Shown here one piece after another: positions 3,221 through 20,887 of a stretch of 64,000 nt of DNA. Within the stretch, counting starts at the first letter, position 1. Every line of letters starts with the position of its first letter. Position numbers and translations under genes: made by a program. Source of the DNA: Thermoleophilia bacterium. Lineage in GTDB: Bacteria > Actinomycetota > Thermoleophilia > UBA2241. Location of the stretch: assembly GCA_040772045.1 (NCBI GenBank), contig JAXGYV010000004.1:65432-129431 (forward strand). The letters are read 5' to 3'. The notes beneath the pieces are model-generated. The model was not told the origin of the DNA, searched no databases, and saw only the letters and a program-made list of their open reading frames with translations.

Positions 3221-3474
3221 CGACTAGCTGTTGCCTGCGGATCGGCAGCGGTGCTACATTGCACGGGTAACGCAGGTACGAAGGACGCCCGGAAGAGCGT
3301 CGCACGAGAGCCCGCCGCCCAGCGGGCGCCGAAGGGGCAAGGTGGCCACGGCCACCGAAACTCTCAGGCCAACGGAGTGCGATGTGACGGGCCCCTGGAC
3401 CAGACGGACTTCCCGTTCTCGGACAGGGTGATGGGGCACATCACCCTGTCCTTCGCATTCAGGGGAAGGACGGA

Positions 3475-4632
3475 TTGGGTATGGGGTCTCTGCATTGGCG
3501 TACAGTAAACCCGCACGGGCGGCGACGAGTCCTGGTTACGAAGGAGCTGCCAGGAACACGCTGGCTCCAGCTTCTCACGGCGGACGACTGTCGTGTCGAC
3601 GTCTGTGCATCACCCTCGACTCTCACCGCGAGCGACATCCGTGCCGCCCTTGCGGGCGGCTGCGCCGCCGTTCTGGGCCAGCTCACCGAGCCGTGGAACG
3701 CCGACCTGCTCCGGGCGCTCAAAGACGCCGGTGGTGGCGTGTACGCGAACTACGCCGTGGGTTTCGACAACGTCGACGTAGAGGCGGCCACCCGCCTCGG
3801 CCTCCCCGTCGGCAACACCCCTGGCGTGCTCACCCAGTCGACAGCCGAGCTCGCCGTGGCGCTCACCTTGGCCGCCGCGCGCCGTATCGCAGAGGGCGAC
3901 GCCTACATGCGCGCGGGTCGCTTCACCGGCTGGCACCCGACACTCCTTCTCGGCCAGCTCTTGGAGCGCAAGGTGCTCGGCGTCGTCGGCGCTGGCCGTA
4001 TCGGCGTCCGGTACGCGCAGATCATGCAGTCCGCCTACCGGATGGATGTCACCTATTTCGACATCCGTCGCAGCGCCGAGCTGGAGGACTTCTCTGCCGC
4101 GTACTCGGCTTTCCTAGAGGCGCGCGGCGAGCAGGGGCTTACGTGTCGCCGCGCGGCCTCCCTCGATGAGCTGCTGGCGGAGGCTGACGTCGTCAGCGTT
4201 CACACGGCACTGCGCGAGGAAACCCGGCACCTCCTTGGGCGCGAGCAGTTCGCCCGCATGAAGCGCGACGCGATCTTCGTGAATACGAGCCGCGGCGCGC
4301 TGCACGACGAGGCAGCGCTCGTCGATCATTGCCGCACGCACCCTACGTTCCGTGCCGCCCTCGACGTCTACGAGGACGAGCCCGCCATGTGCCCGGGGCT
4401 CTCTGAGCTACCAAACGTCGTCGTCGTTCCGCACCTGGGCTCCGCCACCGGCTGGACACGCGAGGGGATGGCTGCTCTGGCCGCCGCCAATGTGCTCGGC
4501 ATCCTCAATAACTGGCCGGTCTGGAACCGCGCCGACATTCGCCCGTTTCTCTCCGCCTCGGCTCCGAAAGCGGCGCCGAGCATCGTGAATGCCACTGAGC
4601 TTGGACTCGAAAGATATGGAGGGACGTCATGA
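3475..4632 (+). CDS. D-isomer-specific 2-hydroxyacid dehydrogenase (hydroxypyruvate/glyoxylate reductase-like)
   Basis: NAD-binding GxGxxG (VLGVVGAGRIGVRYAQ) and catalytic-domain architecture of the D-2-hydroxyacid dehydrogenase family. ATGA overlap with the next gene. Confidence 0.85.
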   Translation: MGMGSLHWRTVNPHGRRRVLVTKELPGTRWLQLLTADDCRVDVCASPSTLTASDIRAALAGGCAAVLGQLTEPWNADLLRALKDAGGGVYANYAVGFDNVDVEAATRLGLPVGNTPGVLTQSTAELAVALTLAAARRIAEGDAYMRAGRFTGWHPTLLLGQLLERKVLGVVGAGRIGVRYAQIMQSAYRMDVTYFDIRRSAELEDFSAAYSAFLEARGEQGLTCRRAASLDELLAEADVVSVHTALREETRHLLGREQFARMKRDAIFVNTSRGALHDEAALVDHCRTHPTFRAALDVYEDEPAMCPGLSELPNVVVVPHLGSATGWTREGMAALAAANVLGILNNWPVWNRADIRPFLSASAPKAAPSIVNATELGLERYGGTS

Positions 4633-5876
4633 ACCCCAGCGAGAACGGCGCACCCAGAAAGACGGCCGCGCCGCAGACTATGAAATTAGCTGACCGCGTA
4701 GCTCGGCTGGGCACTGAGACGGCCTTCGCCGTCTCGGCCGAAGCTGCCGCCCATGCCGCCAAGGGAAACCGCGTGTTTCCCTTCCATCTCGGCGACATGA
4801 ACCTGCCGACTCCGGCCAACATCCAGGAGGCCGCGGTCCGCGCCCTCCGCGAGGGCAAGACAGGGTACTGTCCCAACGGGGGGATCCCCGCGCTACGCGA
4901 CGCATTGGCCGCCGAGATCACGTGTACCCACGGCCTGCAACTCAGCGCCGAGAACGTGGCCATCCAGCCTGGCGGCAAGCCCGTGATCGGGAAGTTCCTG
5001 CTCACATTAGTGAACCCCGGCGAGGAGGTCCTGTACCCCAACCCCGGATTCCCGATCTATGAATCACAGATCGAGTTTCACGGTGGCGTCGCCGTGCCGT
5101 ACGGCTTTGTCCCAGGGAAGGAGAACTTCCTCCTCGACTTCGAGGCCATCGAGCGTTCCATCACGCCACGTACTCGCGCGATCATCTTCAACAACCTCCA
5201 CAACCCCACCGGGGCGGTGAGCCCCCGCGAGGAGATCGAGGCGCTCGCTGAGCTCTGTCTGAAACACGACCTGTACGTGCTTTCCGACGAGGCCTACTGG
5301 GACATCCGGTACAGCGGAGAGAGCCTCTCCATCGCCTCATTGCCCGGCATGGCCGAACGCACCGTGATCCTCTACACGTTCAGCAAGAAGTTCGCCATGA
5401 CTGGCTGGCGTCTCGGCGGCGCGATAGGGCCGAAGCACGTGATTTCCGTGATCGCCACCCTCAACGTAAACGATGAATCATGTACGAACCACTTCGTGCA
5501 ATACGCCGGGATCGAGGCGCTCACCGGCGATCAGTCCGGCGCCCAGCGCATCCTCGCGGTACTCAGAGGGCGCCGCGACGCGGCGGCGGCGGCGCTCAAC
5601 GACATCCCGGGCATCCGCTGTTACTCGCCGTCTGCGACGTTCTACCTTTACCCGGACGTGACCGACGCCATGGAGCGCTTGGGCTTGACGGACTACACCA
5701 GCTTCCGGCTGGGCGCTCTCGAACAGACCGGCTGCTCCTTCTGCACCCGGCTCCACTTCGGTAGGGCGTTGCCCGGCGAGGAGCGCGCATACGTGCGCAT
5801 CGCGTACTCTGGTATAGACGGAGAGAATATCAGCGAGGGTCTCGGCAGGCTCAAGGCGTGGGTCGAGGCCCAGTGA
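4629..5876 (+). CDS. class I/II PLP-dependent aminotransferase
   Basis: Aminotransferase fold with the PLP-lysine motif region SKKFAMTGWRLGG. Start overlaps the upstream stop codon. Confidence 0.85.
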   Translation: MNPSENGAPRKTAAPQTMKLADRVARLGTETAFAVSAEAAAHAAKGNRVFPFHLGDMNLPTPANIQEAAVRALREGKTGYCPNGGIPALRDALAAEITCTHGLQLSAENVAIQPGGKPVIGKFLLTLVNPGEEVLYPNPGFPIYESQIEFHGGVAVPYGFVPGKENFLLDFEAIERSITPRTRAIIFNNLHNPTGAVSPREEIEALAELCLKHDLYVLSDEAYWDIRYSGESLSIASLPGMAERTVILYTFSKKFAMTGWRLGGAIGPKHVISVIATLNVNDESCTNHFVQYAGIEALTGDQSGAQRILAVLRGRRDAAAAALNDIPGIRCYSPSATFYLYPDVTDAMERLGLTDYTSFRLGALEQTGCSFCTRLHFGRALPGEERAYVRIAYSGIDGENISEGLGRLKAWVEAQ

Positions 5877-5891
5877 GGCGGGGAGGTCCAC

Positions 5892-8549
5892 ATGACTGAG
5901 TCGGCACCAAGCGCGAAGCTGCGCCGCACACCACTCTTCGAGCGTCACCTTGCCCACGGGGGCAGGATGGTGGACTTCGCCGGGTGGGAGATGCCGGTAC
6001 AGTATCGTCCGGGCATCATAGAGGAACACCTCACGACACGTAAGGGCGCCGGGCTCTTCGATGTATCGCACATGGGCCGCTTTCTGGTCCGCGGCGCGGA
6101 TGCCGTCCCCTTCCTCCAGCACGTCCTGAGCAACAACGCCTGTGCTCTCGACGTAGGGGAGGCGCAATACACGATCGTGCCCACCGAGACGGGCGGCGCC
6201 GTAGACGATGCGTACCTCTACCGGTTCTTCGCGGACCAGTATCTCCTGGTGGTTAACGCCAGCAATCGGGAGAAGGACTGGGCGCATTTCCAGCAGTTCA
6301 TCGCTGCCTTCAACCAGGTGGAGCTAACCGACCACACCGAAGACATCGTCATGCTCGCCGTACAGGGGCCGAGCGCCCGTGAGGCGGTGGTCGGCCTCCT
6401 CGAGGCCGGCGAGCTGCCCGAGCCGATGCGCAACAAGCTCAGCGTGGTTCGCATGGCCGGCGCCGAAGTGTGGCTCAGCCGCACCGGCTACACAGGCGAG
6501 CCCATGTGTTTCGAGCTCTTCGCACCCCGGGAACACGGGCCCGCGCTCTGGGATGCGTTCGTGGCCGCGGGCGTTGTCCCCGTGGGGCTTGGAGCCCGCG
6601 ACACCCTGCGTCTCGAGGCCGGCCTGCCGCTCTACGGGCACGAGCTCGGCACTGACCCCAGCGGTCAAGAGATCCCGATCTTCGCGATGCCCCTCGCCAA
6701 GTTCGCGGTGAGCCTCTCTCCTCTGAAGGGAGACTTCGTCGGGAGAGCGGCCCTCCAGCGGCAGCAAGAGGCCTACCGACGCATCGTCTTTCGCGACTAC
6801 TCGCTGGCGCACGACCTCCCACGCATCATCCAGCCGGTTGCTCTGACCGACAGAGGCGTGGCCAGAAGCGGAGCCAAGGTGACTCGCTCGGACCGCCACG
6901 TAGGGTGGATCACCAGCGGCACCATGGTGCCGCGGTGGAAAGACGAGGGCAACGGTCTTGCCCAGCGCTTCACAGACAAGCGCGACCTGCGCCCCCTCGC
7001 GCTGGCGCTCCTCGACGCCGACATCGTGGAGGGAGATCGTGTCAACATCGACATCCGCGGCAAGCAGGCAGAGGGTGTTGTCGTCGAGTGGCACCTCCGC
7101 AGTGACGCTCCGCCGTTCGCGCGACCTATCCCGTTGGGCCGTACGTGCCCCGTCAAGCCGCTTCCGGTCCATGAGGACTCCGCCCGCGCGCTGCTGCACG
7201 CCGCAGCCGACAACACGACGTGGCGCCAGCAGCGCTGCATCAACCTGATCCCCTCCGAGATGACCACATCCCCCGCCGTGCGGCTGCTGAGTGTGATGGA
7301 CCCCTGCTTCCGCTACGCCGAACACCGGGAGCTGGAGGCATTCTGTCGCGCCGACGTCTTCTACTACCAGGGAACCGACTTCATCGACGAGGTCGAGCGC
7401 CTCCTGACGGCCGAGCTGCGCAAGTACTTCGGCTGCTCTGAGGTCGAAACGCGTGTCATCAGCGGCCAGATGGCCAACGCGGCTGTCTTCAGCGCCATGG
7501 TGGATTACCTCAACAGAGCAGACCCCAAGAGCGAGCCCCGCCGTCTGCGCATGGTCATGAACCACCATATCGTCAAAGGCGGCCATCTGAGCGCGCAGCC
7601 CATGGGTGCTCTCCGGGATTTCGTCTCCCGCGACCCCAAGACCGACATGGCCGCGGTCGAGAACTTCCCCATGCTCCCCGGCAACCCGTTCAAGACGGAT
7701 GTCGAGAAAACCAAGCAGCTGATCCTGGAACAGCAACCGGAGCTCATCATCTTCGGCCGCAGCATGGTCCTCCACAAGGAGCCGGTTCAGGAGATCCGAC
7801 GCTTCCTCGACGAGCACTCGCTATCGCCCGTCGTGATGTACGACATGGCCCACGTCCTCGGCCTCATCGGGCCGTCCTTCCAGGACCCGTTCCGCGAGGG
7901 TGCCGACATCGTGACCGGTTCGACGCATAAGACGTTTTTCGGCACCCAGCGCGGCGTTATCGCCTGTCGCTTCACGGAGTCGGAGGAGCGCTACGACCTC
8001 TGGGAGGCCATCCGGCGACGCACTTTCCCTGGCTCCGTCTCTAACCACCACCTCGGCACGTTGCTCGGCCTACTCTTGGCGACCTACGAGATGAACCACT
8101 TCAAGGACGAATACCAGCCCGCCGTGGTGGCGAACGCCAAAGCGTTCGCGCGCGCCCTGCACGAGGCCGGCTTGTCCGTTGCCGGCGATCCGACGATCGA
8201 TTTTACGGAGACTCACCAGGTGATCCTCCGCGTGGGCTACGGCCACGGTCCCGCTATCGCCCGCCGCCTCGAGGACAACGACATCATCTGCAACTATCAA
8301 GCAGCACCCGATGAGGAGGGCTTCTCGGCCGCCGGCGCACTACGGCTCGGCGTCTCGGAGATGACCCGCTTCGGCTTCGGCGCCGATGAGTTCCGCGAGC
8401 TGGCGGCACTGATGCGCGCGGTCATCCTCGACGGCGCCGACGTGCGGCAGCGCGTCAACGCGCTGCGCGCGGACTATCGCACCCTGCGCTACTGCTTCAC
8501 GGAAGCACAGTACAGAGAGGAGCTGGCGCGTCTGCGAGCGCTTCTGTGA
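5892..8549 (+). CDS. fusion protein: N-terminal glycine-cleavage T-protein (aminomethyltransferase) domain + C-terminal serine hydroxymethyltransferase-like PLP domain
   Basis: N-terminal ~400 aa are GcvT-like (GAGLFDVSHMGRF..., folate-binding). C-terminal ~450 aa are SHMT-like: NLIPSE..TSPAV near the domain start and the PLP-lysine motif GSTHKTFFGTQRG. Confidence 0.8.
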   Translation: MTESAPSAKLRRTPLFERHLAHGGRMVDFAGWEMPVQYRPGIIEEHLTTRKGAGLFDVSHMGRFLVRGADAVPFLQHVLSNNACALDVGEAQYTIVPTETGGAVDDAYLYRFFADQYLLVVNASNREKDWAHFQQFIAAFNQVELTDHTEDIVMLAVQGPSAREAVVGLLEAGELPEPMRNKLSVVRMAGAEVWLSRTGYTGEPMCFELFAPREHGPALWDAFVAAGVVPVGLGARDTLRLEAGLPLYGHELGTDPSGQEIPIFAMPLAKFAVSLSPLKGDFVGRAALQRQQEAYRRIVFRDYSLAHDLPRIIQPVALTDRGVARSGAKVTRSDRHVGWITSGTMVPRWKDEGNGLAQRFTDKRDLRPLALALLDADIVEGDRVNIDIRGKQAEGVVVEWHLRSDAPPFARPIPLGRTCPVKPLPVHEDSARALLHAAADNTTWRQQRCINLIPSEMTTSPAVRLLSVMDPCFRYAEHRELEAFCRADVFYYQGTDFIDEVERLLTAELRKYFGCSEVETRVISGQMANAAVFSAMVDYLNRADPKSEPRRLRMVMNHHIVKGGHLSAQPMGALRDFVSRDPKTDMAAVENFPMLPGNPFKTDVEKTKQLILEQQPELIIFGRSMVLHKEPVQEIRRFLDEHSLSPVVMYDMAHVLGLIGPSFQDPFREGADIVTGSTHKTFFGTQRGVIACRFTESEERYDLWEAIRRRTFPGSVSNHHLGTLLGLLLATYEMNHFKDEYQPAVVANAKAFARALHEAGLSVAGDPTIDFTETHQVILRVGYGHGPAIARRLEDNDIICNYQAAPDEEGFSAAGALRLGVSEMTRFGFGADEFRELAALMRAVILDGADVRQRVNALRADYRTLRYCFTEAQYREELARLRALL

Positions 8550-9865
8550 GCGCTCCGGAAGCAGAGCCGCGCGCGTTCCTGCGCGCCCTCTTCGACGCGG
8601 CCGTCTCCTCCGCTCTGCCGGCCCGGGTGATCCCGGGCCGGCTCCCCGCTCTCCCTCATGGGAGAACCGTTGTGGTGGGGGCGGGCAAAGCCGCGGCGGC
8701 GATGGCTCGTGCCGTGGAGCAGGAGTGGGCCGGGCCGCTCGCGGAGCTCTCCGGCCTGGTGGTTACGCGCTACGGGCACGCCGTGCCGTGCGCGCACATC
8801 GAGGTCGTGGAGGCATCCCACCCGATGCCCGATGCCCAGGGCCGCCGAGCCGCCGAGCGCATCCGTACACTGGCCGCCGAGCTCCGCGAGGACGATCTCC
8901 TCATCTGCCTGATCTCCGGCGGCGGCTCGGCGCTGCTCGCGCTGCCCGCGCCAGGGATCGACATGGCCGACAAGCGGACGGTAAACGACGCGCTGTTGCG
9001 CTGTGGGGCCCCCATCGAGGCGATCAACTGCGTGCGGAAACACCTGTCGGCGATTAAGGGGGGGCGCCTGGCCGAAGCGGCACACCCCGCGCGCGTGGTC
9101 ACCTTCCTCATCAGCGATGTCCCCGGCGACGACCCTTCGGTGATCGCCTCGGGGCCCACCGTCCCCGACCCCTCCACGTACGCCGACGCCATCGCCGTCC
9201 TGGCCCGCTTTGGCGTCGACGTGCCCCCAGCCGTGAAAGCGAGACTGCTGGCCGGCGCGGGCGCGACGACGCCCTCCGGCGTCGCGAGCGCGGCACCCGA
9301 GGAGACGCCCAAGCCAGGCGACCCGGCCTTCGCGTGCGACGAGGTAGTCATGCTGGCCACCGCCGCCGACGCCCTCCGGGCGGCGGCGGCGGTGGCTCGC
9401 CAGGCCGGCGTCACGCCAGTAGTGCTCGGCGACGCCGTCGAGGGCGAGGCGCGCACGGTGGGGGCCGCCCACGCTCAACTGGCTCTGCGCTGTGCCGCGG
9501 GAGACGGACCCGCCTCGCCACCATGCGTCCTGCTCAGCGGAGGCGAGACTACGGTGACCGTGCGCGGGACCGGCCGTGGCGGACGCAACGCGGAGTACCT
9601 GCTCTCAGCCGCCATCACCCTTGGCGGCAGCCAGCGCATATACGGACTCGCCGGCGATACCGATGGCATCGACGGCACGGAGGACAACGCCGGCGCCCTG
9701 ACGGGGCCGCACACGCTGGCCGCCGCGCGCCGCGCCGGCCTGGACCCCGACGGCGCGCTCCGGGCCAACGACGCCTACGGTGTGTTCGCCGCCCTCGGCG
9801 ACCTCGTGATCACCGGCCCCACGCGGACCAACGTGAACGACTTCCGCGCCCTCTACGTGGTCTGA
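8546..9865 (+). CDS. glycerate kinase (MOFRL family, glycerate 2-kinase type)
   Basis: DUF4147+MOFRL architecture. GTG start overlaps the stop of the upstream gene (TGTGA). Confidence 0.8.
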   Translation: MSAPEAEPRAFLRALFDAAVSSALPARVIPGRLPALPHGRTVVVGAGKAAAAMARAVEQEWAGPLAELSGLVVTRYGHAVPCAHIEVVEASHPMPDAQGRRAAERIRTLAAELREDDLLICLISGGGSALLALPAPGIDMADKRTVNDALLRCGAPIEAINCVRKHLSAIKGGRLAEAAHPARVVTFLISDVPGDDPSVIASGPTVPDPSTYADAIAVLARFGVDVPPAVKARLLAGAGATTPSGVASAAPEETPKPGDPAFACDEVVMLATAADALRAAAAVARQAGVTPVVLGDAVEGEARTVGAAHAQLALRCAAGDGPASPPCVLLSGGETTVTVRGTGRGGRNAEYLLSAAITLGGSQRIYGLAGDTDGIDGTEDNAGALTGPHTLAAARRAGLDPDGALRANDAYGVFAALGDLVITGPTRTNVNDFRALYVV

Positions 9866-9914
9866 CCTTCGCCGGGGCAGTCCTGGGCGGGCAGCCACTG
9901 TGGGCCACCAGCTC

Positions 9915-12392
9915 TCAGCCGGCCTCGATCTCCTCGTCTGTTGCTCCCGACTCGGAGACGACGTGGAGGGCGACGGCGGACACCTTGTCGCTCTCGCGGA
10001 GATTCATCACCTTAACGCCCTGCGTGGCTCTCCCGTAGCGGCCGATGCCATCGACGCGCATCTTGATGACCACGCCATCGCGGCTCTGGATGGCGATCTC
10101 GTGGTTGTCGCGCACCACGCGCACCCCGGCCAGAGAGCCCTTTCGATCGGTAAGGGTGACCGTGCGCACGCCCAAGCCGCCCCTTCCCTGCACCGGATAC
10201 TGGTCCAGCCTCGTGCGCTTGCCGAAGCCGTTCTCGGTAACGACGAGCAGATCTGAGTCGTCGCGAGCCACATCTGTGGCGATAACCTCATCGTCTTTGC
10301 GCAGGCGCATCCCGCGGACTCCGCTGGTGTTGCGTCCCGTGGGCCGCACATCTGCTTCGTGGAAGCGGATCGCCTGACCGAGACGGCTGACCATGATGAT
10401 GTCGTCTTCGCCAGAGCAGTGCCGCACCTGAATGAGCTCGTCGTCGGGTCGCACGTCGACGGCGATAATGCCATCGGCCTTCAGCGGGGTGTTGTACGAG
10501 CCGAAGAGCGTCTTTTTCACCATACCGCGGCGCGTGGCGAAGATGAGATACTTTCCCTCGGCCACGTCGAAGTTCCGGGTGCGGATGATCGCGCGCACCG
10601 TCTCGTCGCTGCGCAGCGGCAACAAGTTGGCCAGGTGCTTGCCCCGAGCGTTCCGGCCGGCGAGCGGAAGCTCGTGTGCTTTCAGTCGGTAGACCTTGCC
10701 GATGCTCGTGAAGAACAAGACGTACTCGTGGGTCGAGGCGAAGAAGAAGTGCTCGACCTCGTCTTCTTCCTTGAGCTCCATGCCGGTGACGCCTACACCA
10801 CCGCGCTTCTGCTGACGGTACGTGGTAACGGGAAGCCGCTTCACGTAGCCCGTCTTGGTGATGGTGATGGCCATCTGTTCGTCGGCGATGAGATCCTCGA
10901 TGTCTAGTTCGCCCTCGTCGGGGATGATCTGCGTGCGCCGGTCGTCGTTGTAAAGCCGCTTAACCTCGAGCAGCTCGTCCTTGATGACTTGGTAGATAGC
11001 GTGCTCGTCACCGAGCAGCCTGCGCAGCTCCTGGATACGTACCAGTAGCCCTTGGTGTTCTTCGTGCACCTTGTGACGCTCGAGCTGCGTGAGCCGCTGG
11101 AGGCGGAGGTCGAGGATGGCCTGCGCCTGTGGCCTGGTGAGCTCGAAGGTGTCCATGAGCGACTCGCGGGCGGCGTCGGGCTCTCTCGCCTTCCGGATGA
11201 TGCTGATGACTTGATCGAGGTTGTCCAGAGCCACCAGCAGGCCCTCGAGGATGTGCGCCCTGGTCTCGGCTTTATCGAGCTCGAACTTACTGCGGCGGAC
11301 GATGACGTCCTTCTGAAACGCCACGTACGCCTTGATCATCTCCGGCAACGTGAGCGTGCGCGGCACCCCGCCGACCAGCGCGATGTTGATGACGCCGAAC
11401 GTGGTCTGCATCTGGGTGTGCTTGTACAGCTTGTTCAGCACTACCTTCGGCACGGCCTCGCGTTTGAGCTCGATGACCACGCGCATGCCGTTACGGTCGC
11501 TCTCATTCCGCAGATCGCTGGCCTCGGGCAGCTTCTTCTGCTTGACGAGGTCCACGATCTGCTCGATGAGCGCCGCACGGTTCACCTGGTAGGGAAGCTC
11601 GGTTACTACGATGGCACTGCGATTGCCCTTGAGCTGCTCAGTGTGGGCCTTGGCGCGGACGCGGATGCGTCCGCGCCCCGTGCGATACGCCTCTTTGATG
11701 CCGGCGGTGCCGAGGATGAGGCCGCCGGTGGGGAAGTCCGGCCCCTTGATGTGCTGCATGAGGTCGTCCGCCGACGCGTCGGGCTGATCGATGCTGGCCA
11801 CGATGGCGTCTACCACCTCGCCCAGATTGTGCGGGGGGATGTTGGTGGCCATGCCCACAGCGATACCGTTGGACCCGTTGACCAGGAGGTTCGGCATGCG
11901 CGCCGGCAGGACCGTGGGCTCCCGGCGCGTCTCGTCGTAGTTGGGGACCCAGTCCACGGTGTTGGCGTCGATGTCGCGCAGCATCTCCACGGCGATGCGG
12001 CTGAAGCGCGCCTCCGTGTAGCGCATGGCGGCCGGCGAGTCGCCCTCGACAGAACCGAAGTTCCCCTGGCCGTCGACCAGCGGGTAGCGCATGTTGAAGT
12101 CTTGCGCCATGCGCACCAGTGTTGGATAGATGACCGCCTCGCCGTGCGGGTGATAGTTACCCGAGGTGTCGCCCGCGATCTTGGCGCACTTACGGTGCTG
12201 CTTATTCGGCGCCAGCCCCAGATCGTTCATCGCCACCAGAATGCGCCGTTGGCTCGGCTTGAGGCCGTCGCGCACGTCTGGCAGCGCACGGTCGACGATG
12301 ACGCTCATCGCATAGTCGATGAACGATGAGCGCATCTCCTCCTCGAGCTCGATGGGCTCGATCCTGCCTTCTAGCGTCTGAACCTGATCCAT
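9915..12392 (-). CDS. gyrA: DNA gyrase subunit A
   Basis: Canonical GyrA N-terminus including the active-site region, followed by C-terminal beta-pinwheel repeats. 825 aa. Confidence 0.95.
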
Positions 12393-12404
12393 ATGCCGCT
12401 CGCC

Positions 12405-14822
<2,418 letters not shown>

Positions 14823-15005
14823 CTAAAGACAGCCTGTGGAGGCGGGGGGTTCTGCCTGAGTAAGTATACCAGAATCAGCCTCTCGCGACCGCCTCCGCGC
14901 CCTCCTGCTCGCTCTACAATTTCGTCGTTTTGCTCGTGTTTCCTGCATGACACCCAGCGGTCCACAGACCACCGAGAGGACGGGCGTGTCGGGCGACGCC
15001 GCGTG

Positions 15006-15302
15006 TCAGCGAGGGCGTCTGCCTGAGACAAACCGCAGGCGCTCTACGGGGCAATCCGGGTCGGCGGCGTGCATCTTGGCCAGGAACTCACCGCTCAGAT
15101 AGGTGAGCTCCTGCGCCCAGACCGAGGATTCACATTCGAGGACGAGCGTGCCCCGTGCGAGCCGGACCGGCGTGGCGGCCGCGGTCACGTGCGCTCCCGC
15201 GGCGGCCGACCACGCGGCGTACGCGCGGGCCTCCTCGCCCTCGCGCAGCCTCTCGGCCGTACGCTTCAGCACGTCGCCCAGGCGTACGAACTCGGCCGTC
15301 AT
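15006..15302 (-). CDS. DUF721 family protein (recF-gyrB-associated)
   Basis: Small conserved ORF between recF and gyrB. The likely start is an internal ATG (MTAEF...) overlapping the recF stop (ATGA). The track ORF extends to 15404 but overlaps recF. Confidence 0.55.
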   Translation of the reverse strand: MTAEFVRLGDVLKRTAERLREGEEARAYAAWSAAAGAHVTAAATPVRLARGTLVLECESSVWAQELTYLSGEFLAKMHAADPDCPVERLRFVSGRRPR

Positions 15303-16408
15303 ACCGCACCCTCCGGAGTATTCAAATCGATGACCAGCGCGCGGGCGAGCTCCCCGGAAGTGAAGTACATCGTCGTGGTGGTCGTCACCAGCACCTGGCC
15401 GCACTGCAGAAGCAGTTCCACCAGGAGGCGTCTTCGCCGCTCGTCAAGTTCGCTCATCACGTCGTCGAGGAGCAGCGGCCCAGTCTTGTCGAAGACCTCG
15501 GCGGCCACGTGCCGCTCGGCCAGGAGGAGGGCCAGCACCGCCGCTCGCTGTTCCCCCTGGGAGCCGAAAGGCCGCAGGTCACGACCTAGGGGGCTCGCGC
15601 CGGCCCCGCCCACCTCCAGGAAGCGCAGTTCATCGCGGTGCGGCCCAAGCGAGGTTGTACCGCGAACGATCTCCAGCGCTCGCCGCTGCCGTAGCGCCGC
15701 AAGGTAGGCCTGCACATCGTGCTCGTACTCCGCAAAACCAGACTGGAGCTCGAGATCGAACGTGCCTCCGCACGGCGTGAGGGCGGTGGCATGCTCTGCA
15801 AAGATCGGTCGGAGATATTCCACGAAATCTCTGCGCCGCCTACCCAAGTCGATACCGGCCTGAGCCACCTGCTTGTCCCACGGGTCGAGTGTGCGTTCCG
15901 CCGTGCCGCCACGCACGCGCACCAACTGAGCGTTTCGCTGTCGCAGCGCTAGGTGGAGATCCGTGCTGGCGGCTGCGTAGCTAGCATCCAGCGCGGCGGC
16001 AAACGCGTCAAGGTGAGCGCGGCGACGGGCCGGACTGCCTTTCACCAGAAGCAAACTCTCTGGTACGAAGATGAATACGGCTGCGCGGCGCCGCAATTCC
16101 TCGGCGGTGGCATCGCCTGCGCGACTAACTCGAATACGTCGGCCAGAGCCCGGCGCGAAGTACACCTGGGTACGGCTCCCGTCGTCGAGCTGCGCCTCGG
16201 CTCGCACGTAGCTTGCCCCCCACCGGACGAGCTTTTCGTCGCGGCTCGTCCGTGGCGACGCCGCCCGGAGGGCGTAGAACACCCCCTCGAGTAAGTTCGT
16301 CTTGCCAGCCGCATTCTCACCGACCACGATGTTGAGCCCGGGCGAAAAGACGAACCGGGCTTTGTGGTAGGAGCGGAAGTTCGTCAGTCCTATCTCGGCG
16401 ACGTGCAT
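15299..16408 (-). CDS. recF: DNA replication and repair protein RecF
   Basis: N-terminal Walker A (GENAAGKTNLLEG) and ABC/SMC-like RecF architecture. Conserved dnaN-recF-gyrB synteny. Confidence 0.9.
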   Translation of the reverse strand: MHVAEIGLTNFRSYHKARFVFSPGLNIVVGENAAGKTNLLEGVFYALRAASPRTSRDEKLVRWGASYVRAEAQLDDGSRTQVYFAPGSGRRIRVSRAGDATAEELRRRAAVFIFVPESLLLVKGSPARRRAHLDAFAAALDASYAAASTDLHLALRQRNAQLVRVRGGTAERTLDPWDKQVAQAGIDLGRRRRDFVEYLRPIFAEHATALTPCGGTFDLELQSGFAEYEHDVQAYLAALRQRRALEIVRGTTSLGPHRDELRFLEVGGAGASPLGRDLRPFGSQGEQRAAVLALLLAERHVAAEVFDKTGPLLLDDVMSELDERRRRLLVELLLQCGQVLVTTTTTMYFTSGELARALVIDLNTPEGAV

Positions 16409-16601
16409 ACGCGGTACTCTTGGTCGTCGATAGCGACCACGTCGCCGGGCCGTACGAGATGCGCTCGGCGGCGCTCTTCCGCACCGTTTAACCGAATGCG
16501 TCCGCCTTGCACCATGGCTTTCGCCTCTCCGCCGCTACCAGCGATGCCGGCCACTTTGAGGAGAGCACCCAGCGTGAGTGGACCTCTTACGAAGACGTCG
16601 A

Positions 16602-17714
16602 TCAGGTGCTCAGGCGAATCGGCATGATCAGGTACACGAAATCGGCCGCCGCCTCATCTACCCCTGTGATAAGTCCGGGCCGAAGAGGACTGATCAGTTT
16701 GAGGGAGATCTTGCTCCCCTCCACGGCCTCCACCCCGTCGATAAGGTACGCGTGGTTGAATCCGATCTCGAAATCCTCACCCTCGTACGCGACATCGATC
16801 TGCTCTTCCGCCTGGCCGACATCTTGCGTAATCGCCCGCATGGTTAGCGATCCGGCGGAGAACCGCAGGCGAAGCGGAGCGTTTTTCTGAGCGAGTAGTC
16901 CAACCCGGCGGGCGACAGCGAGGAACGACTCCTTCTCCAATTCAAGCTCGTGCTCATACGCGTCTGGGAGCAGCTGCTTGTAATTCGGGAAAGCGCCATC
17001 GATGAGCCGCGTAGCGAGCACGACCTCGCCGAACCCAAAAACCGCCTGATTTTCAGTCACGGCAACGTCAACCGCATCGCGATCGCCCGCCGCAGCCAGC
17101 CGAGCGACCTCTCCCAGCGCCTTTACGGGCACGATCGCTTGCATCTCTATCTCTGGCCCGCCCTCCAGCTGCGACTGCTTCACAGCTAAACGATAACTAT
17201 CAGTCGCCACCATCTTCAGCGAGCCTCCACCCAGCACAACTAACACACCGGTGAGAATCGGGCGCGTCTCATCCCTCGAAGCGGCTCGCGCCACCTTGCT
17301 GAGGGTCTCGACGAGAGGGTCGGCGGCCACGCGGAAACTCGCAGAGAGATCGAATGCCGATGTCTGTGGAAAATCGCTAGCCGCCCACGAGTTCAGCTCG
17401 AACATCGCTTTCCCCGCGACCACCTGCACGGTGCCACCGCCACCACTCTCCACGGTAACCTCGTCCCCCGACAGGTTACGTACGATGTCGGAGAACAGTC
17501 GCGCCGGAACAACCACGTCACCCGGCTCATCGATAGTGCTCGTCAGCGTCGCCCTTACAGAGATCTCCATATCGGTCGCATACAAGTTCAAACGCTCTTC
17601 GGAGGCCTGCAGGAGGATGCCCGAGAGCACCGGTAGTGCACTCCGCGCCGATACGGCACGTGCAAGCACAGCGAGTCTGTCAACGAGGGTGCCACGGTCA
17701 CACCGGAGTCTCAT
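16602..17714 (-). CDS. dnaN: DNA polymerase III beta sliding clamp
   Basis: 370 aa three-domain clamp. Sits immediately downstream of dnaA and oriC. Confidence 0.9.
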   Translation of the reverse strand: MRLRCDRGTLVDRLAVLARAVSARSALPVLSGILLQASEERLNLYATDMEISVRATLTSTIDEPGDVVVPARLFSDIVRNLSGDEVTVESGGGGTVQVVAGKAMFELNSWAASDFPQTSAFDLSASFRVAADPLVETLSKVARAASRDETRPILTGVLVVLGGGSLKMVATDSYRLAVKQSQLEGGPEIEMQAIVPVKALGEVARLAAAGDRDAVDVAVTENQAVFGFGEVVLATRLIDGAFPNYKQLLPDAYEHELELEKESFLAVARRVGLLAQKNAPLRLRFSAGSLTMRAITQDVGQAEEQIDVAYEGEDFEIGFNHAYLIDGVEAVEGSKISLKLISPLRPGLITGVDEAAADFVYLIMPIRLST

Positions 17715-17979
17715 GCCAGCTCCTTATTTCTATGAAGAAAGTTCCTTTGTATCTGCTTCATCGTCATTATCATCTGCTGGAAGCTGTGTAGAACTGCGGG
17801 GGTGCGTGCAGAATGCGTAGTCCTCCGCAGTTCATCGTCCTGTGGACGCCGTGTGGATAAGTGTGAACGTTTACCATCCGCCAGGCGACCACACACAGCA
17901 TAGTCGGTTAAAGGGTGGGTTGTGAATCGCTCATCCTCACCATTCCACAGTCACGCTCACAACCGGTCGGGTCGCGGGC
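17715..17979. promoter_or_regulatory. oriC candidate (dnaA-dnaN intergenic): DnaA boxes plus AT-rich DNA unwinding element
   Basis: A perfect DnaA box TGTGGATAA (17852-17860) is flanked by the near-boxes TGTGGACGC, TGTGAACGT, TGTGAATCG, ATTCCACAG and TTTCACACG. AT-rich stretch at 17721-17775 (ttatttctatgaagaaagttcctttgtatctgcttcatcgtcattatcatc) in an otherwise ~68% GC genome. Confidence 0.7.
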
Positions 17980-19437
17980 CTAGCGGGTGGCTTTCACACG
18001 GTCAGTTACAGTCTGTACGAGCTCGTGGAGCTGGCGGTCGTGACCATCCTTGAGGAGACGCTCGATCTTTTGGATGGCGTAGAGAACAGTAGTGTGGTGA
18101 CGACCACCGAAGCGCTCGCCGATTTGAGGAAGAGACGCATCGGTGAGCTCACGCGAGATATACATGGCGACTTGGCGCGCGTATGCCAGGTCTTGTGTAC
18201 GACGATCGCCGCGGAGGTCGCTGATGTGACAGCCGAATTGCCGGGCGACCTCTGCCTGCACCGCGTCGACTGTAACGGGCATTCTGAACGCGTGAGGGAG
18301 GATATCCTTGAGGGCCTCCTGCGCGAGCGGCAGCGTAATTTCCCCTCCCCGGACGGCTGCGAAGCTGACCACCCGTGTGAGCGCCCCGTGGAGTTCACGG
18401 ATATTAGACGTAACGCGTGCGGCGATGTACTCGAGCACCTCACCCTCGCGGATCGGCAGGCCATCCCATTTGACCTGTCGCCGCAGGATTGCGATGCGTG
18501 TCTCTAGGTCGGGCCGGCCAATGTCGACGACGACACCAGCGCCGAAGCGAGAGCGGAGCCGCTCCTCCAATGCCTCCAGCTCCCGAGGAGGTCTGTCCGA
18601 CGTGATCACGATCTGCTTGCCGGCTTCGTACAGCGAGTTGAAGGTATGAAAGAACTCGACCTGTGTCTGCTGCTTCTCAGCGAGGAACTGAACATCGTCC
18701 ACGAGGAGGATGTCGTTGTCGCGATAAGCTTGTTTGAACCCCTCGATGCGCCCCTTGTCGGTAAGCGCGTTGATGAAGTCGTCGGTGAAGCGTTCCACGG
18801 TGACGTACTTGAACTGCAACCGTGGATGACTCGCCAGTGCCGCATGAGCGATAGCTTGCACGAGGTGCGTCTTCCCAAGGCCTGTATCGGCATAGATGAA
18901 GACGGGGTTGTACGCGGTTGCGGGCGACTCGGCGACGCTATTAGCTACCGCGGCGGCGTACTCATTGTGCGGCCCGATCACGAAACGCGCGAACGTATAC
19001 CGGGGATTAAGCTCCTGCGTCGCCTTCGCCACGGGCGCGGAGGGCTCCGCGACCCCTGGAGCTGTAGTTTTCGCTGGTGATACTGGCGCCGTGGACTGCT
19101 GGGCTTCGTCTGGGGGAGAACTTTCGGCGGGTTTCTGCGCCTCAGCCCGATCATCTACCACGATACATACGGTGATCGGCGTGGAGAGAACAGTCGTCAA
19201 CGCGTTCGTGAGGAGAGGTCCGAACCGCTTCTCCACCCAGTCACGCATGAACTCACTCGCTACACCGAGGGTGAAGGTATCGTTCGAGAGCGCAACCGCG
19301 ACGGAAGGAGCGAAGAAGAGACGATACGTCGCCTCGTTCACGTGCTGCTGGAGGTAAACCCGGGCCTCATCCCAGATGCGTGTTAGGTGGTCGTCGATCG
19401 CGTGGCTCCTCTGCGTCGAACCGGATGCGAATGGCAT
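17980..19437 (-). CDS. dnaA: chromosomal replication initiator protein DnaA
   Basis: AAA+ Walker A/B and a C-terminal DnaA-box-binding domain. 485 aa with an extended, proline/alanine-rich domain II. Confidence 0.95.
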   Translation of the reverse strand: MPFASGSTQRSHAIDDHLTRIWDEARVYLQQHVNEATYRLFFAPSVAVALSNDTFTLGVASEFMRDWVEKRFGPLLTNALTTVLSTPITVCIVVDDRAEAQKPAESSPPDEAQQSTAPVSPAKTTAPGVAEPSAPVAKATQELNPRYTFARFVIGPHNEYAAAVANSVAESPATAYNPVFIYADTGLGKTHLVQAIAHAALASHPRLQFKYVTVERFTDDFINALTDKGRIEGFKQAYRDNDILLVDDVQFLAEKQQTQVEFFHTFNSLYEAGKQIVITSDRPPRELEALEERLRSRFGAGVVVDIGRPDLETRIAILRRQVKWDGLPIREGEVLEYIAARVTSNIRELHGALTRVVSFAAVRGGEITLPLAQEALKDILPHAFRMPVTVDAVQAEVARQFGCHISDLRGDRRTQDLAYARQVAMYISRELTDASLPQIGERFGGRHHTTVLYAIQKIERLLKDGHDRQLHELVQTVTDRVKATR

Positions 19438-20267
19438 TACAGGATGGATTCCAGGAGAGAAGCGCCCCCTTCAGTAAGCACCCGTTTCCCGTCGCCGACG
19501 GGACGAACCAGGCCGGCTCGTTCCAGTATACCGAGTTCACGAAAAGCCGTAGCTGGAGCGATTTCCAACTCCTTGGCTAGGGGTGTTGGCCCAGCGGCGC
19601 CGAGCTCCATGAGCAAGACGAGCATGCGCTTTTGCCGGGTGGTAAGACGTACCGCGGGCTCGGCCGGAGTTGAGGGAGGACGAGCCTCACCCGTCTTGTG
19701 GGGCAGCCGTATGGTGAGCACGGTACCGCCGCCCAGGTTGTCCTCGATGGTGAGCACGCCGCGCAGGAACGCCAGCGACTCCTGGGCGATCGGCAGCCCG
19801 GACCCCACGCCACGAATCCAGTGCCGCTGAGCGGCGGTCGCTGTAGTGAAGCCGGGCTGGATGGCCCTGGCTTTGTCGGCGATGCCAGGGCCGTGATCCG
19901 ATATCCGCAAGACCTGTCCGCCGTCTAGGACCGTGACTACCACATCCTGAAATGAAGCGTGAATGAGATTCTCGATGAGCTCTCGAATGACCGTGTATGG
20001 GACCTGTCCGCCCTGCTCCCGGCAGTGCCGGTACGTCTCTGTGGCGAGTGAGCCGATAAGCGCGGGCAAGTCGGCCTCTTCCACGGTGATTACCCGCGGC
20101 GGGCTGGTCAGCGTGTCGTAGACGGCGATTCGTGGTGCCCCCGGTCCGCGGAGCGGGCCCTCTCCCTCCGGCGCGCTGGGCCCGTTGTCGCACGCACGCT
20201 CGTCGGCGCAGCTGGGCGCCGGCGCGTCGCTGTGACCGGCGAGAAGCCTCTCGAGGAAGGACTCCAT
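19437..20267 (-). CDS. GHKL (histidine-kinase-like) ATPase domain fused to a C-terminal winged helix-turn-helix domain; translationally coupled to dnaA
   Basis: HATPase_c motifs: N-box ELIENLIHA, G1 DHGPGI, G2 GSGLPI. C-terminal MarR/ArsR-like wHTH (TTRQKRMLVLLMELG...LAKELEIAPATAFRELGILERAGLV). Its stop codon overlaps the dnaA start (TAATG). Confidence 0.7.
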   Translation of the reverse strand: MESFLERLLAGHSDAPAPSCADERACDNGPSAPEGEGPLRGPGAPRIAVYDTLTSPPRVITVEEADLPALIGSLATETYRHCREQGGQVPYTVIRELIENLIHASFQDVVVTVLDGGQVLRISDHGPGIADKARAIQPGFTTATAAQRHWIRGVGSGLPIAQESLAFLRGVLTIEDNLGGGTVLTIRLPHKTGEARPPSTPAEPAVRLTTRQKRMLVLLMELGAAGPTPLAKELEIAPATAFRELGILERAGLVRPVGDGKRVLTEGGASLLESIL

Positions 20268-20354
20268 GGGCCGCCGAGTATAGCAGAGGCACTACGCCGA
20301 CCGAAAAGGCGCTCGGAAGCGATGAAACGCTAGCGAGCGGCAGAATCGCCGCCG

Positions 20355-20700: not shown

Positions 20701-20764
20701 GTCACACGAAACAGGTGTGGGACGTGCCCTGTTGGGCGAAGAGGTACACTCTTTCTGCTGCGGA

Positions 20765-20885: not shown

Positions 20886-20887
20886 AG

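What the first reader, a model, noticed from the sequence alone, without database searches (positions are those of the whole stretch)
5892..8549. Single 885-aa polypeptide fusing a GcvT-like aminomethyltransferase domain to a divergent SHMT-like domain, inside a glycine-to-glycerate operon
The two THF-dependent steps that convert two glycines into one serine are normally carried by separate proteins (T-protein releasing CH2-THF, and SHMT consuming it). Here they are one chain, potentially channelling methylene-THF. The SHMT-like half keeps the PLP lysine (STHKTFFG) but lacks the canonical YYGG/ASENF motifs, so its substrate may differ. The gene is translationally coupled within an operon: 2-hydroxyacid dehydrogenase, aminotransferase, this fusion, and MOFRL glycerate kinase (3475-9865). 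The operon reads as a complete glycine/serine to hydroxypyruvate to glycerate to phosphoglycerate route, as in photorespiration or a C2-assimilation pathway.
Basis: partly seen in the sequence, partly recalled or inferred. Interest (0 to 1): 0.55.

Follow-up and report, generated by a model that had tools for sequence, protein, structure and literature searches.

The report
Fused T-protein–SHMT glycine-to-serine enzyme
One gene really does join the glycine-cleavage T-protein to a serine hydroxymethyltransferase, in a glycine-riboswitch-controlled operon that should turn glycine into phosphoglycerate; the fusion is common in uncultured anaerobes, is annotated only as "GcvT", and I found no paper describing it.

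Summary
Window 5892-8549(+) is one uninterrupted 885-aa ORF. Its N-half is a canonical GcvT that passes the NCBIfam GcvT cut-offs, with the catalytic Asp106 present. Its C-half is an archaeal-type SHMT, about 40% identical to M. jannaschii SHMT, and nearly every catalytic residue checked is kept.

The fusion is not a sequencing artefact and not unique. At least 216 GTDB species genomes encode it. The best 80 are all MAGs, mostly Desulfobacterota, plus Thermoleophilia, Chloroflexota, Planctomycetota and Acidobacteriota.

Riboswitch and operon are conserved in related Thermoleophilia-type loci.

Elsewhere the fusion takes the gcvT position beside gcvH-gcvPA-gcvPB-lipA (33 of 78 loci). In one locus it sits directly upstream of L-serine ammonia-lyase.

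Best reading: a bifunctional T-protein/SHMT that converts two glycines into one serine while recycling folate locally. Here it feeds serine → hydroxypyruvate → glycerate → 2-phosphoglycerate.

This is a new variant of a known kind, of moderate interest. Activity and folate channelling are untested.

The parts
3289..3395 (+). Glycine riboswitch aptamer (singlet)
   Evidence: Rfam RF00504 at 3293-3389, 63.2 bits against gathering score 32, E 1e-10. The fold shows P1 and the P3/P3a-type stems, z = -5. Homologous aptamers lie upstream of the same operon in L001, L069, L074 and L083/L084.
3392..3460 (+). Expression platform: CCCUG segment just after P1, plus a conserved 13-bp hairpin (3421-3451, GGACAGGGUGAUG...CAUCACCCUGUCC) and a short U-containing tail
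   Evidence: The hairpin is almost identical in sequence in window, L001, L069, L074 and L083, and has a U-rich tail in L069 and L083. The RF03166 alignment pairs CCCUG(G) with (G)ACAGGG, which is the hairpin's 5' arm. Inference: glycine-dependent anti-termination, i.e. an ON switch.
3475..4632 (+). D-2-hydroxyacid dehydrogenase, probable hydroxypyruvate/glyoxylate reductase (the true start may be ATG 3481)
   Evidence: Pfam 2-Hacid_dh_C and 2-Hacid_dh. Best NCBIfam match is glyoxylate reductase PRK13243, 232 bits, below its cut-off. Closest PDB entries are 2cuk (glycerate dehydrogenase/glyoxylate reductase) and 2dbq.
4629..5876 (+). Class I/II PLP aminotransferase, inferred serine → hydroxypyruvate transaminase
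   Evidence: Pfam Aminotran_1_2, E 7e-50. No NCBIfam equivalog passes. Closest PDB entries are Thermus AspAT 1bjw and 6f77. Orthologues (66-75% identity) lie next to the fusion in Thermoleophilia loci and in L032, L054 and L078 from other phyla.
5892..7130 (+). Fusion protein, N-terminal module (aa 1-413): glycine cleavage T-protein (aminomethyltransferase)
   Evidence: Pfam GCV_T, E 3e-76. NCBIfam GcvT models are above their cut-offs. Matches PDB 1yx2, 1woo and 3a8i at E 1e-53 to 1e-60. Catalytic Asp = D106 (codon 6207-6209), located by comparing 3a8i with the 3a8k D→N mutant. D106, N122, E208, R236 and R240 are invariant in 132 full-length fusions.
7131..7193 (+). Inter-domain linker (about aa 414-434)
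   Evidence: Variable in the family alignment: no invariant column between I413 and N441. AlphaFold2 pLDDT is below 50 for residues 401-424.
7194..8549 (+). Fusion protein, C-terminal module (aa 435-885): archaeal-type serine hydroxymethyltransferase
   Evidence: Pfam SHMT over the full profile length, E 1e-33. Best PDB matches are M. jannaschii SHMT 4bhd/4uqv at E 1e-52, against about 1e-23 for bacterial and eukaryotic SHMT. PLP lysine K680 (codon 7929-7931) plus S455, Y475, E477, Y492, S524/G525, H565, D651, H654, H679 and R818 are conserved in at least 130 of 132 fusions.
8546..9865 (+). Glycerate 2-kinase (DUF4147 + MOFRL)
   Evidence: Pfam DUF4147 E 4e-87 and MOFRL E 1e-36. NCBIfam glycerate 2-kinase 226 bits, below its cut-off. 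PDB 2b8n (T. maritima glycerate kinase) at E 2.5e-77.

Best explanation
The gene encodes a bifunctional enzyme. [quoted passage not shown] It takes the aminomethyl group from lipoyl-H-protein, releases NH3 and makes 5,10-methylene-tetrahydrofolate. A flexible linker of about 20-25 residues connects it to an archaeal-type SHMT module. That module uses the methylene-folate to hydroxymethylate a second glycine to L-serine and regenerates tetrahydrofolate beside the T-site.

Together with P-, H- and L-proteins encoded elsewhere, the net reaction is 2 glycine + NAD+ → serine + CO2 + NH3 + NADH.

In this genome the gene is the third of four translationally coupled genes behind a singlet glycine riboswitch, probably an ON switch. 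High glycine should therefore induce the whole route:
- glycine → serine (fusion protein);
- serine → hydroxypyruvate (class I aminotransferase);
- hydroxypyruvate → D-glycerate (2-hydroxyacid dehydrogenase);
- D-glycerate → 2-phosphoglycerate (MOFRL kinase).

Shown here: domain identities, conservation of catalytic residues, presence of the riboswitch, and conserved gene contexts.

Inferred: both enzymatic activities, the folate hand-off, the aminotransferase's substrate, the ON logic of the riboswitch and the direction of flux.
For: - Domain assignment and residues: GcvT models are above their curated cut-offs. The catalytic Asp was located through the 3a8i/3a8k pair. The SHMT profile is matched end to end, with about 40% identity to the characterised M. 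jannaschii SHMT. SHMT residues S35, Y55, E57, Y65, S97/G98, H126, D200, H203, H228, K229 and R363 (E. coli numbering) are all conserved in at least 130 of 132 fusions.
- T-protein role: the fusion lies within 6 kb of gcvH/gcvPA/gcvPB (with lipA, lpd) in 33 of 78 loci. It takes the gcvT position in gcvT-H-PA-PB-lipA-type operons (L045, L068). Only one locus has an extra GcvT-like gene.
- Serine as the product: L-serine ammonia-lyase beta and alpha genes follow the fusion directly in L002. The HPR-AT-fusion-glycerate kinase operon recurs in L001, L069 and L083/L084, with L074 and L053 partial.
- Glycine as the inducer: glycine riboswitches lie upstream in the window, L001, L069, L074 and L004, L072 and L083/L084. 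These span three phyla.
- Two independent modules: the linker is variable and of low confidence.
Against: - No biochemical data exist for any member. I found no paper on the fusion.
- The SHMT half scores below NCBIfam's SHMT cut-off (243 vs 335 bits).
- Two positions differ from E. coli SHMT, and I recall both as functionally relevant: N347 (pterin contact) is Gln803, and R235 aligns with Gln686 next to a family-specific Arg687. The C1 carrier or the kinetics could therefore differ.
- The 64-kb window holds no gcvH, gcvP, lpd or lipA, so H-protein dependence in this organism is assumed.
- The aminotransferase is AspAT-like, not a known serine-glyoxylate or serine-pyruvate aminotransferase.
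- The AlphaFold2 monomer model gives no reliable inter-domain geometry (pTM 0.57), so channelling has no structural support.
Confidence: 0.75

Rival explanations
1. Same bifunctional enzyme, but working in the reductive (assimilatory) direction as part of a reductive glycine pathway. The T-module helps make glycine from CH2-THF + CO2 + NH3, and the SHMT module adds a second CH2-THF to give serine for biomass.
For: Most carriers are Desulfobacterota and other anaerobes, a phylum for which the reductive glycine pathway has been discussed (PMC12827605). The fusion clusters with gcvH-PA-PB-lipA-lpd there, without glycine riboswitches. Both reactions are reversible (established biochemistry).
Against: In this window and its relatives the operon sits behind a glycine riboswitch whose architecture suggests induction by glycine. 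That fits glycine consumption, not synthesis. In the reductive direction both modules consume CH2-THF, so the fusion offers no cofactor hand-off. L002 couples the fusion to serine deaminase, which fits either direction.
Confidence: 0.12
2. The C-terminal half is not a serine hydroxymethyltransferase. It is a related fold-type I enzyme with another reaction, such as a beta-hydroxy-amino-acid aldolase or transaldolase or an alpha-methylserine-type enzyme, or it uses a non-folate pterin. On this view the operon processes something other than serine.
For: The score is below the NCBIfam SHMT cut-off. The half resembles the L-threonine transaldolase 7k34 (E 1e-24, deposited as 'Threonine aldolase') and the fluorothreonine transaldolase model at low scores. 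N347 is replaced by Gln803, and the family has its own inserts. Its closest characterised relative uses tetrahydromethanopterin rather than THF (my recollection of the M. jannaschii SHMT literature). A QueD/PTPS-like pterin gene lies next to the fusion in L072.
Against: Glu477 (E57) and Tyr492 (Y65), which are associated with the folate-dependent reaction, are invariant. The transaldolase models score far below their cut-offs (149 vs 650 bits). Covalent linkage to a folate-producing T-protein, and contexts with serine deaminase, hydroxypyruvate reductase and glycerate kinase, all point to serine.
Confidence: 0.08
3. One half is catalytically silent (a pseudoenzyme) and serves only as a scaffold or regulator for the other half.
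For: One distant 50%-cluster representative (P0124) has lost the PLP lysine and the equivalents of H126 and H203. Degenerate SHMT halves therefore exist in the wider family.
Against: In the window protein, and in 131 of 132 full-length relatives, every catalytic residue checked in both halves is retained.
Confidence: 0.03
4. The fusion is an artefact: two adjacent genes joined by a sequencing or assembly error.
For: One related contig (L082) has separate GCV_T (439 aa) and SHMT (442 aa) genes 57 bp apart.
Against: The single-ORF architecture recurs in at least 216 species genomes and thousands of metagenome proteins from independent projects. The L082 contig also has other genes broken into pieces, so it is probably the erroneous one.
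Confidence: 0.01

Closest known systems
Glycine cleavage system T-protein (GcvT/AMT; e.g. B. subtilis 1YX2, T. maritima 1WOO, E. coli 3A8I)
   Same: The N-half aligns over the whole T-protein. It passes the NCBIfam GcvT cut-offs, keeps the catalytic Asp and the conserved N122, E203/E208 and R236/R240 positions, and takes the gcvT slot next to gcvH/gcvP in many genomes.
   Different: It carries two family-specific inserts (about aa 289-311 and 349-368). It is covalently extended by a 450-aa SHMT module. In this genome it is not next to gcvH/gcvP.
Archaeal serine hydroxymethyltransferase (Methanocaldococcus jannaschii, PDB 4BHD/4UQV)
   Same: It is the best solved relative of the C-half (E 1e-52, about 40% identity). 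It shares the YQG, GSTHKTFFG.Q and FPG.VSNHH motifs.
   Different: The archaeal enzyme is a free-standing protein. I recall that it prefers tetrahydromethanopterin. The fused version has extra inserts, Gln803 in place of Asn, and a family-specific Arg687.
Bacterial GlyA (E. coli SHMT, PDB 1DFO)
   Same: Same fold and the same PLP- and substrate-binding residues: S35, Y55, E57, Y65, H126, D200, H203, H228, K229, R363.
   Different: Only about 27% identity. The score is below the NCBIfam SHMT cut-off. The motif variants are PSEM/YYQG instead of ASEN/YYGG.
Glycine decarboxylase–SHMT coupling in plant photorespiration, and the serine → hydroxypyruvate → glycerate branch of the photorespiratory and serine cycles
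   Same: Same chemistry predicted for the operon: two glycines to one serine, then transamination, reduction and glycerate phosphorylation.
   Different: There the T-protein and SHMT are separate proteins. The aminotransferase is class V (SGAT), and the plant kinase makes 3-PGA. Here T and SHMT are one chain, the aminotransferase is class I, and the kinase is a MOFRL 2-kinase type.
Glycine-riboswitch-controlled gcvT operons (e.g. B. subtilis gcvT-gcvPA-gcvPB)
   Same: A glycine aptamer sits upstream of a gcvT-family gene, with a probable ON switch by anti-termination.
   Different: The aptamer here is a singlet with a 'ghost' helix rather than tandem. The controlled operon holds no P or H genes but carries a downstream serine-to-phosphoglycerate route.
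Other GcvT-domain fusions (sarcosine oxidase alpha, dimethylglycine dehydrogenase, TMAO demethylase)
   Same: A folate-binding GCV_T module is fused to the enzyme that supplies or uses the C1 unit (weak matches).
   Different: In those enzymes the GCV_T module traps formaldehyde or iminium from an oxidase or demethylase. Here it is a true H-protein-type T-protein fused to the consumer of methylene-folate.

Membership tests
Glycine cleavage T-protein (GcvT) | Sequence matches the curated GcvT models above their cut-offs | tested here: met
   NF001567 325 bits (cut-off 300) and TIGR00528 262.9 bits (cut-off 235.85). Pfam GCV_T E 3e-76.
Glycine cleavage T-protein (GcvT) | Catalytic aspartate (E. 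coli Asp97 / T. maritima Asp96) and conserved folate-site residues | tested here: met
   D106 aligns with the residue mutated in 3a8k relative to 3a8i. D106, N122, E208, R236 and R240 are invariant in 132 fusions. The assignment of the non-Asp residues to folate binding is from memory.
Glycine cleavage T-protein (GcvT) | Genomic association with gcvH/gcvP | tested here: inconclusive
   Met in 33 of 78 related loci. Not met within this 64-kb window. The rest of the genome was not available.
Glycine cleavage T-protein (GcvT) | H-protein- and THF-dependent aminomethyl transfer | not testable with these tools
   Needs an enzyme assay.
Serine hydroxymethyltransferase (SHMT) | Full-length match to the SHMT profile | tested here: met
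   Pfam PF00464 116.8 bits (gathering score 27), profile positions 12-398 of 399. PDB 4bhd at E 1e-52.
Serine hydroxymethyltransferase (SHMT) | Score above NCBIfam's naming cut-off for SHMT | tested here: not met
   NF000586 243.1 bits against a cut-off of 335. The model is dominated by bacterial GlyA, whereas this half is of the archaeal type.
Serine hydroxymethyltransferase (SHMT) | PLP lysine in the T-H-K motif plus Asp (PLP N1), stacking His, carboxylate Arg, and Glu57/Tyr65 of the folate-dependent mechanism | tested here: met
   K680, H679, D651, H565, R818, E477 and Y492 are conserved in at least 131 of 132 fusions.
Serine hydroxymethyltransferase (SHMT) | Folate/pterin-contact Asn347 and Arg235 (E. 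coli numbering) | tested here: not met
   These positions are Gln803 and Gln686, with an adjacent family-specific Arg687. M. jannaschii SHMT also has Gln at the R235 position.
Serine hydroxymethyltransferase (SHMT) | Reversible Ser + THF ⇌ Gly + CH2-THF activity | not testable with these tools
   Contextual support only: serine deaminase directly downstream in L002, and the HPR/AT/glycerate kinase operon.
Glycine riboswitch (RF00504) | Covariance-model score above the Rfam gathering threshold, located in a 5' leader | tested here: met
   63.2 bits against 32 at 3293-3389, 86 nt upstream of the first ORF. Orthologous leaders in five related loci.
glycine-GGAnGA variant riboswitch (RF03166) | Score above gathering threshold | tested here: not met
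   65.2 bits against 110.
Serine-glyoxylate / serine-pyruvate aminotransferase (class V, SGAT/AGT) | Aminotran_5 (class V) fold | tested here: not met
   The operon's aminotransferase is Aminotran_1_2, closest to Thermus AspAT. Serine transamination is inferred from context only.
Glycerate 2-kinase (MOFRL family) | DUF4147 + MOFRL architecture and similarity to a characterised member | tested here: met
   Pfam E 4e-87 and 1e-36. PDB 2b8n at E 2.5e-77. The NCBIfam equivalogs (archaeal) are below their cut-offs.

The most novel reading that the evidence does not exclude
The fusion is the core of a dedicated 'glycine-to-serine synthase' machine. One folate molecule, possibly tightly bound or polyglutamylated, shuttles between the T-site and the SHMT site, so free methylene-THF is never released. 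In the organisms that carry it, this protein replaces both gcvT and glyA. It would be a natural solution to the long-debated question of whether glycine decarboxylase and SHMT are physically coupled.
Probability: 0.25. Interest if true: 0.7.

Novelty: new variant of a known kind. Interest (0 to 1): 0.5.

Why it matters
Glycine cleavage followed by SHMT is the central 2-glycine-to-serine step of photorespiration. Run in reverse, it is the core of the reductive glycine pathway now being engineered for formate and CO2 assimilation. Whether methylene-folate is handed directly from the T-protein to SHMT has been argued for decades without a physical complex to study.

A natural, widespread covalent T-protein–SHMT fusion supplies such an object. 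It can be expressed, assayed for channelling by isotope dilution or by competition with other CH2-THF consumers, and solved structurally.

It also matters for annotation. Pipelines name these proteins only 'GcvT'. Metabolic reconstructions of Desulfobacterota, Thermoleophilia, Chloroflexota and Planctomycetota MAGs may therefore wrongly report glyA as missing.

The riboswitch-controlled HPR–AT–fusion–glycerate kinase operon is a compact, portable module for converting glycine to phosphoglycerate.

Tried and rejected
- Artefact or frameshift: rejected because the single-ORF architecture is widely conserved. The one split example (L082) lies on a contig with many broken genes.
- gcvH, gcvPA, gcvPB, lpd, lipA or a second glyA in the 64-kb window: tblastn with E. 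coli GcvH, with cluster-derived queries and with E. coli GlyA found nothing except the fusion itself.
- Literature: six full-text searches and two paper look-ups found no description of a natural GcvT–SHMT fusion. This is absence in the searchable library, not proof of absence.
- Second protein search with the C-half alone, to find free-standing relatives: it returned mostly contig-truncated fragments of fusions and was uninformative. Free-standing relatives at about 50% identity do appear in the representative search (P0138, P0150), but their contexts could not be looked up.
- Structure: the AlphaFold2 model has pLDDT 77.5 and pTM 0.57 with a disordered linker. It gives no usable inter-domain geometry, and coordinates are not exposed, so channelling could not be assessed. 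The Foldseek afdb50 library was unavailable.
- glycine-GGAnGA riboswitch variant: below the gathering score.
- Sigma-70 promoter and canonical terminator scan of the operon: nothing above shuffled expectation.
- Exact-sequence look-up of the window protein: not on record.
Full report
**1. Observation**

Window 5892-8549(+) is one uninterrupted ORF of 885 codons.

- Pfam places GCV_T at residues 16-255 (E 3e-76). It also finds a weak GCV_T_C match, and SHMT at residues 439-840 covering almost the whole profile (E 1e-33).
- NCBIfam's GcvT models are passed: 325 bits against a cut-off of 300, and 263 against 236.
- The SHMT model PRK00011 scores 243 bits, below its cut-off of 335.
- gyrA converges on the operon's end at 9865-9915.

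**2. The fusion is real and common**

- The word-indexed protein search returned more than 120 proteins of about 883 aa with the same GCV_T+SHMT architecture, at 64-99% identity. Sources that name them use only 'aminomethyltransferase' or 'GcvT'.
- The exhaustive search of 50%-identity representatives found about 11 more full-length fusion clusters, down to 36% identity. It also found free-standing relatives of each half.
- A scan of one genome per GTDB species found 216 genomes encoding the fusion.
- The best 80 are all MAGs. About three quarters are Desulfobacterota (Desulfobacterales, Desulfosarcina, Syntrophobacter, Desulfatiglandales, Deferrisomatales). The rest are Thermoleophilia and other Actinomycetota, Anaerolineae/Caldilineae, Planctomycetota, Acidobacteriota and a few others.
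- The only split version seen (L082) is on a contig with several other fragmented genes, so it is probably a sequencing error.

**3. Both halves look catalytically competent**

N-half:
- It aligns with the T-proteins of B. subtilis, T. maritima and E. coli at E 1e-53 to 1e-60.
- Comparing E. coli 3a8i with its D→N mutant 3a8k identifies the catalytic Asp. It corresponds to D106 here.
- D106, N122, E208, R236 and R240 are invariant in 132 full-length fusions.

C-half:
- It is far closer to the archaeal SHMT of M. jannaschii (4bhd/4uqv, E 1e-52, about 40% identity) than to bacterial or eukaryotic SHMTs (about 1e-23).
- I aligned it to E. coli GlyA.
- The equivalents of S35, Y55, E57, Y64/Y65, S97/G98, H126, D200, H203, H228, K229 and R363 are S455, Y475, E477, Y491/Y492, S524/G525, H565, D651, H654, H679, K680 and R818. 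All are conserved in at least 128 of 132 fusions.
M. jannaschii SHMT likewise has YQG and ASEN.
- Real differences from E. coli are Gln803 for Asn347, Gln686 for Arg235 next to a family-specific Arg687, and several inserts.

Linker:
- Residues 414-434 are variable.
- The AlphaFold2 model has pLDDT below 50 for residues 401-424 (overall pLDDT 77.5, pTM 0.57). This suggests two independently folded modules on a flexible tether.

**4. Context in the window**

- The window lies next to the replication-origin gene set dnaA-dnaN-recF-gyrB-gyrA on the minus strand.
- It comes from a Thermoleophilia-like actinobacterium. GyrA is 80-83% identical to Thermoleophilia MAGs, and a tRNA-synt_1b (Trp/Tyr-type) tRNA synthetase gene upstream and gyrA downstream are syntenic with them.
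- Rfam finds a glycine riboswitch at 3293-3389, 63 bits against a gathering score of 32, directly upstream of the first gene.
- It is a singlet aptamer. The RF03166 alignment, which scores below that family's threshold, extends it with a 'ghost' helix pairing CCCUG (3393-3397) with CAGGG (3424-3428).
- CAGGG is also part of the 5' arm of a 13-bp hairpin at 3421-3451. That hairpin is nearly identical in sequence in five related leaders and has a U-rich tail in two of them.
- I infer glycine-dependent anti-termination, i.e. an ON switch. This has not been shown.
- The four genes are:
  - a 2-hydroxyacid dehydrogenase, closest to glycerate dehydrogenase/glyoxylate reductases (2cuk, 2dbq);
  - a class I aminotransferase, closest to Thermus AspAT;
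  - the fusion;
  - a DUF4147/MOFRL glycerate kinase, closest to 2b8n.
- The window holds no gcvH, gcvP, lpd, lipA or second glyA.

**5. Context elsewhere**

- Riboswitch followed by the full HPR-AT-fusion-glycerate kinase operon recurs in L001 and L069 and in L083/L084, the contigs of the 75%-identical P0002.
- L074 has the riboswitch, the aminotransferase and the fusion, but no reductase or kinase was detected. L053 is a truncated contig carrying reductase, aminotransferase and fusion.
- Glycine riboswitches, here tandem, also directly precede the fusion in a Phycisphaerae locus (L004) and an Anaerolineaceae locus (L072).
- Clustering ORFs from the 80 loci and scanning them with Pfam shows the fusion within 6 kb of gcvH, gcvPA or gcvPB in 33 of 78 loci, often with lipA and a dihydrolipoamide-dehydrogenase-like gene. 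Among the 41 loci with at least 3 kb on both sides, 20 have them.
- The usual arrangement is divergent. In seven loci it is co-directional, and L045 and L068 read fusion-H-PA-PB-lipA.
- Only L019 has an extra GcvT-like gene nearby. In the other clusters the fusion is therefore the T-protein.
- In the Caldilineaceae locus L002, both subunits of L-serine ammonia-lyase follow the fusion immediately. Both pass their NCBIfam cut-offs.
- The same class I aminotransferase accompanies the fusion in Acidobacteriota (L032), Planctomycetota (L054) and Desulfobacterales (L078).
- All of these contexts are consistent with glycine as substrate and serine as product.

**6. Mechanism proposed**

- The P-protein decarboxylates glycine onto lipoyl-H.
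- The N-module transfers the methylene unit to tetrahydrofolate and releases NH3.
- The tethered C-module uses the methylene-folate and a second glycine to make L-serine, returning tetrahydrofolate.
- In this operon, serine is then transaminated to hydroxypyruvate, reduced to D-glycerate and phosphorylated to 2-phosphoglycerate.
- The advantage of the fusion would be 1:1 stoichiometry and local folate recycling. True channelling is untested.
- I give this reading about 0.75 confidence.

The main rivals are:
- the same enzyme running in the reductive glycine direction, which is plausible in Desulfobacterota but less so behind a glycine-induced leader;
- a non-SHMT activity or a non-folate pterin for the C-half;
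- a catalytically dead half, seen only in the distant representative P0124.

**7. Comparison with the known, and novelty**

- Each part belongs to a well-known family, and the pathway chemistry is that of photorespiration and the serine cycle.
- Three things are new: the covalent union of the T-protein with an archaeal-type SHMT, its wide but unremarked distribution in uncultured anaerobes, and its packaging in a riboswitch-controlled glycine-to-phosphoglycerate operon that uses a class I aminotransferase.
- Six full-text searches and two paper look-ups found no description of it.
- I class it as a new variant of a known kind, with moderate interest (0.5). It is not surprising in principle, but it makes the question of glycine decarboxylase–SHMT coupling directly testable. 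It also exposes a systematic annotation gap, because the SHMT function is hidden under the name 'GcvT'.

Noticed in passing
window 3289-3460: A glycine riboswitch (singlet aptamer plus conserved terminator-like hairpin) lies upstream of the operon. The hairpin sequence GGACAGGGUGAUG...CAUCACCCUGUCC is almost identical across five related leaders.
   Followed up: yes
window 9915-19437 (minus strand): This is the replication-origin neighbourhood: gyrA, gyrB, recF, dnaN and dnaA in a row, so the operon lies within about 10 kb of the probable oriC. ORF 19687-21102(-) next to dnaA (471 aa) has no Pfam match and may be spurious.
   Followed up: partly
L002 197-4457: In a Caldilineaceae MAG, L-serine ammonia-lyase beta and alpha subunits follow the fusion directly on the same strand. 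This gives a glycine → serine → pyruvate module.
   Followed up: yes
L016 7069-9426; L028 3308-5665; L032 4218-6575: A divergent 785-aa transketolase-like gene sits next to the fusion, and in L028 and L032 also next to the same class I aminotransferase. Hydroxypyruvate is a classic transketolase donor, so this may be an alternative fate for serine-derived hydroxypyruvate.
   Followed up: partly
L056, L060, L062, L063, L064, L067, L071 (1-5 kb downstream of the fusion): An isocitrate lyase gene lies close to the fusion in seven Desulfosarcina-type loci. This hints at a glyoxylate-glycine-serine link.
   Followed up: partly
L072 3711-8570: An Anaerolineaceae locus carries a tandem glycine riboswitch, the fusion, a QueD/6-pyruvoyl-tetrahydropterin-synthase-like gene, and a bifunctional hexulose-6-phosphate synthase/RraA-like gene. 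This is an unusual pairing of C1 and pterin genes.
   Followed up: no
P0124 (representative protein, 889 aa): A distant fusion subfamily has lost the PLP lysine (THK → AHH) and the equivalents of H126 and H203. Its SHMT half may be inactive.
   Followed up: no
L019, L031, L039, L052, L066, L077, L080 (between gcvH and the fusion): An Lrp/AsnC-type regulator gene lies between gcvH and the fusion in seven Desulfobacterota loci. This may be protein-based control where no riboswitch is present.
   Followed up: no
L082 6624-9329: GCV_T (439 aa) and SHMT (442 aa) appear here as separate adjacent genes. Several neighbouring genes on the contig are also fragmented, so this is probably a frameshift error rather than a natural split.
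   Followed up: partly
window 35439-38294 (+): A 951-aa UPF0182 family protein (E 1e-275). I recall this uncharacterised membrane protein family as typical of Actinobacteria.
   Followed up: no
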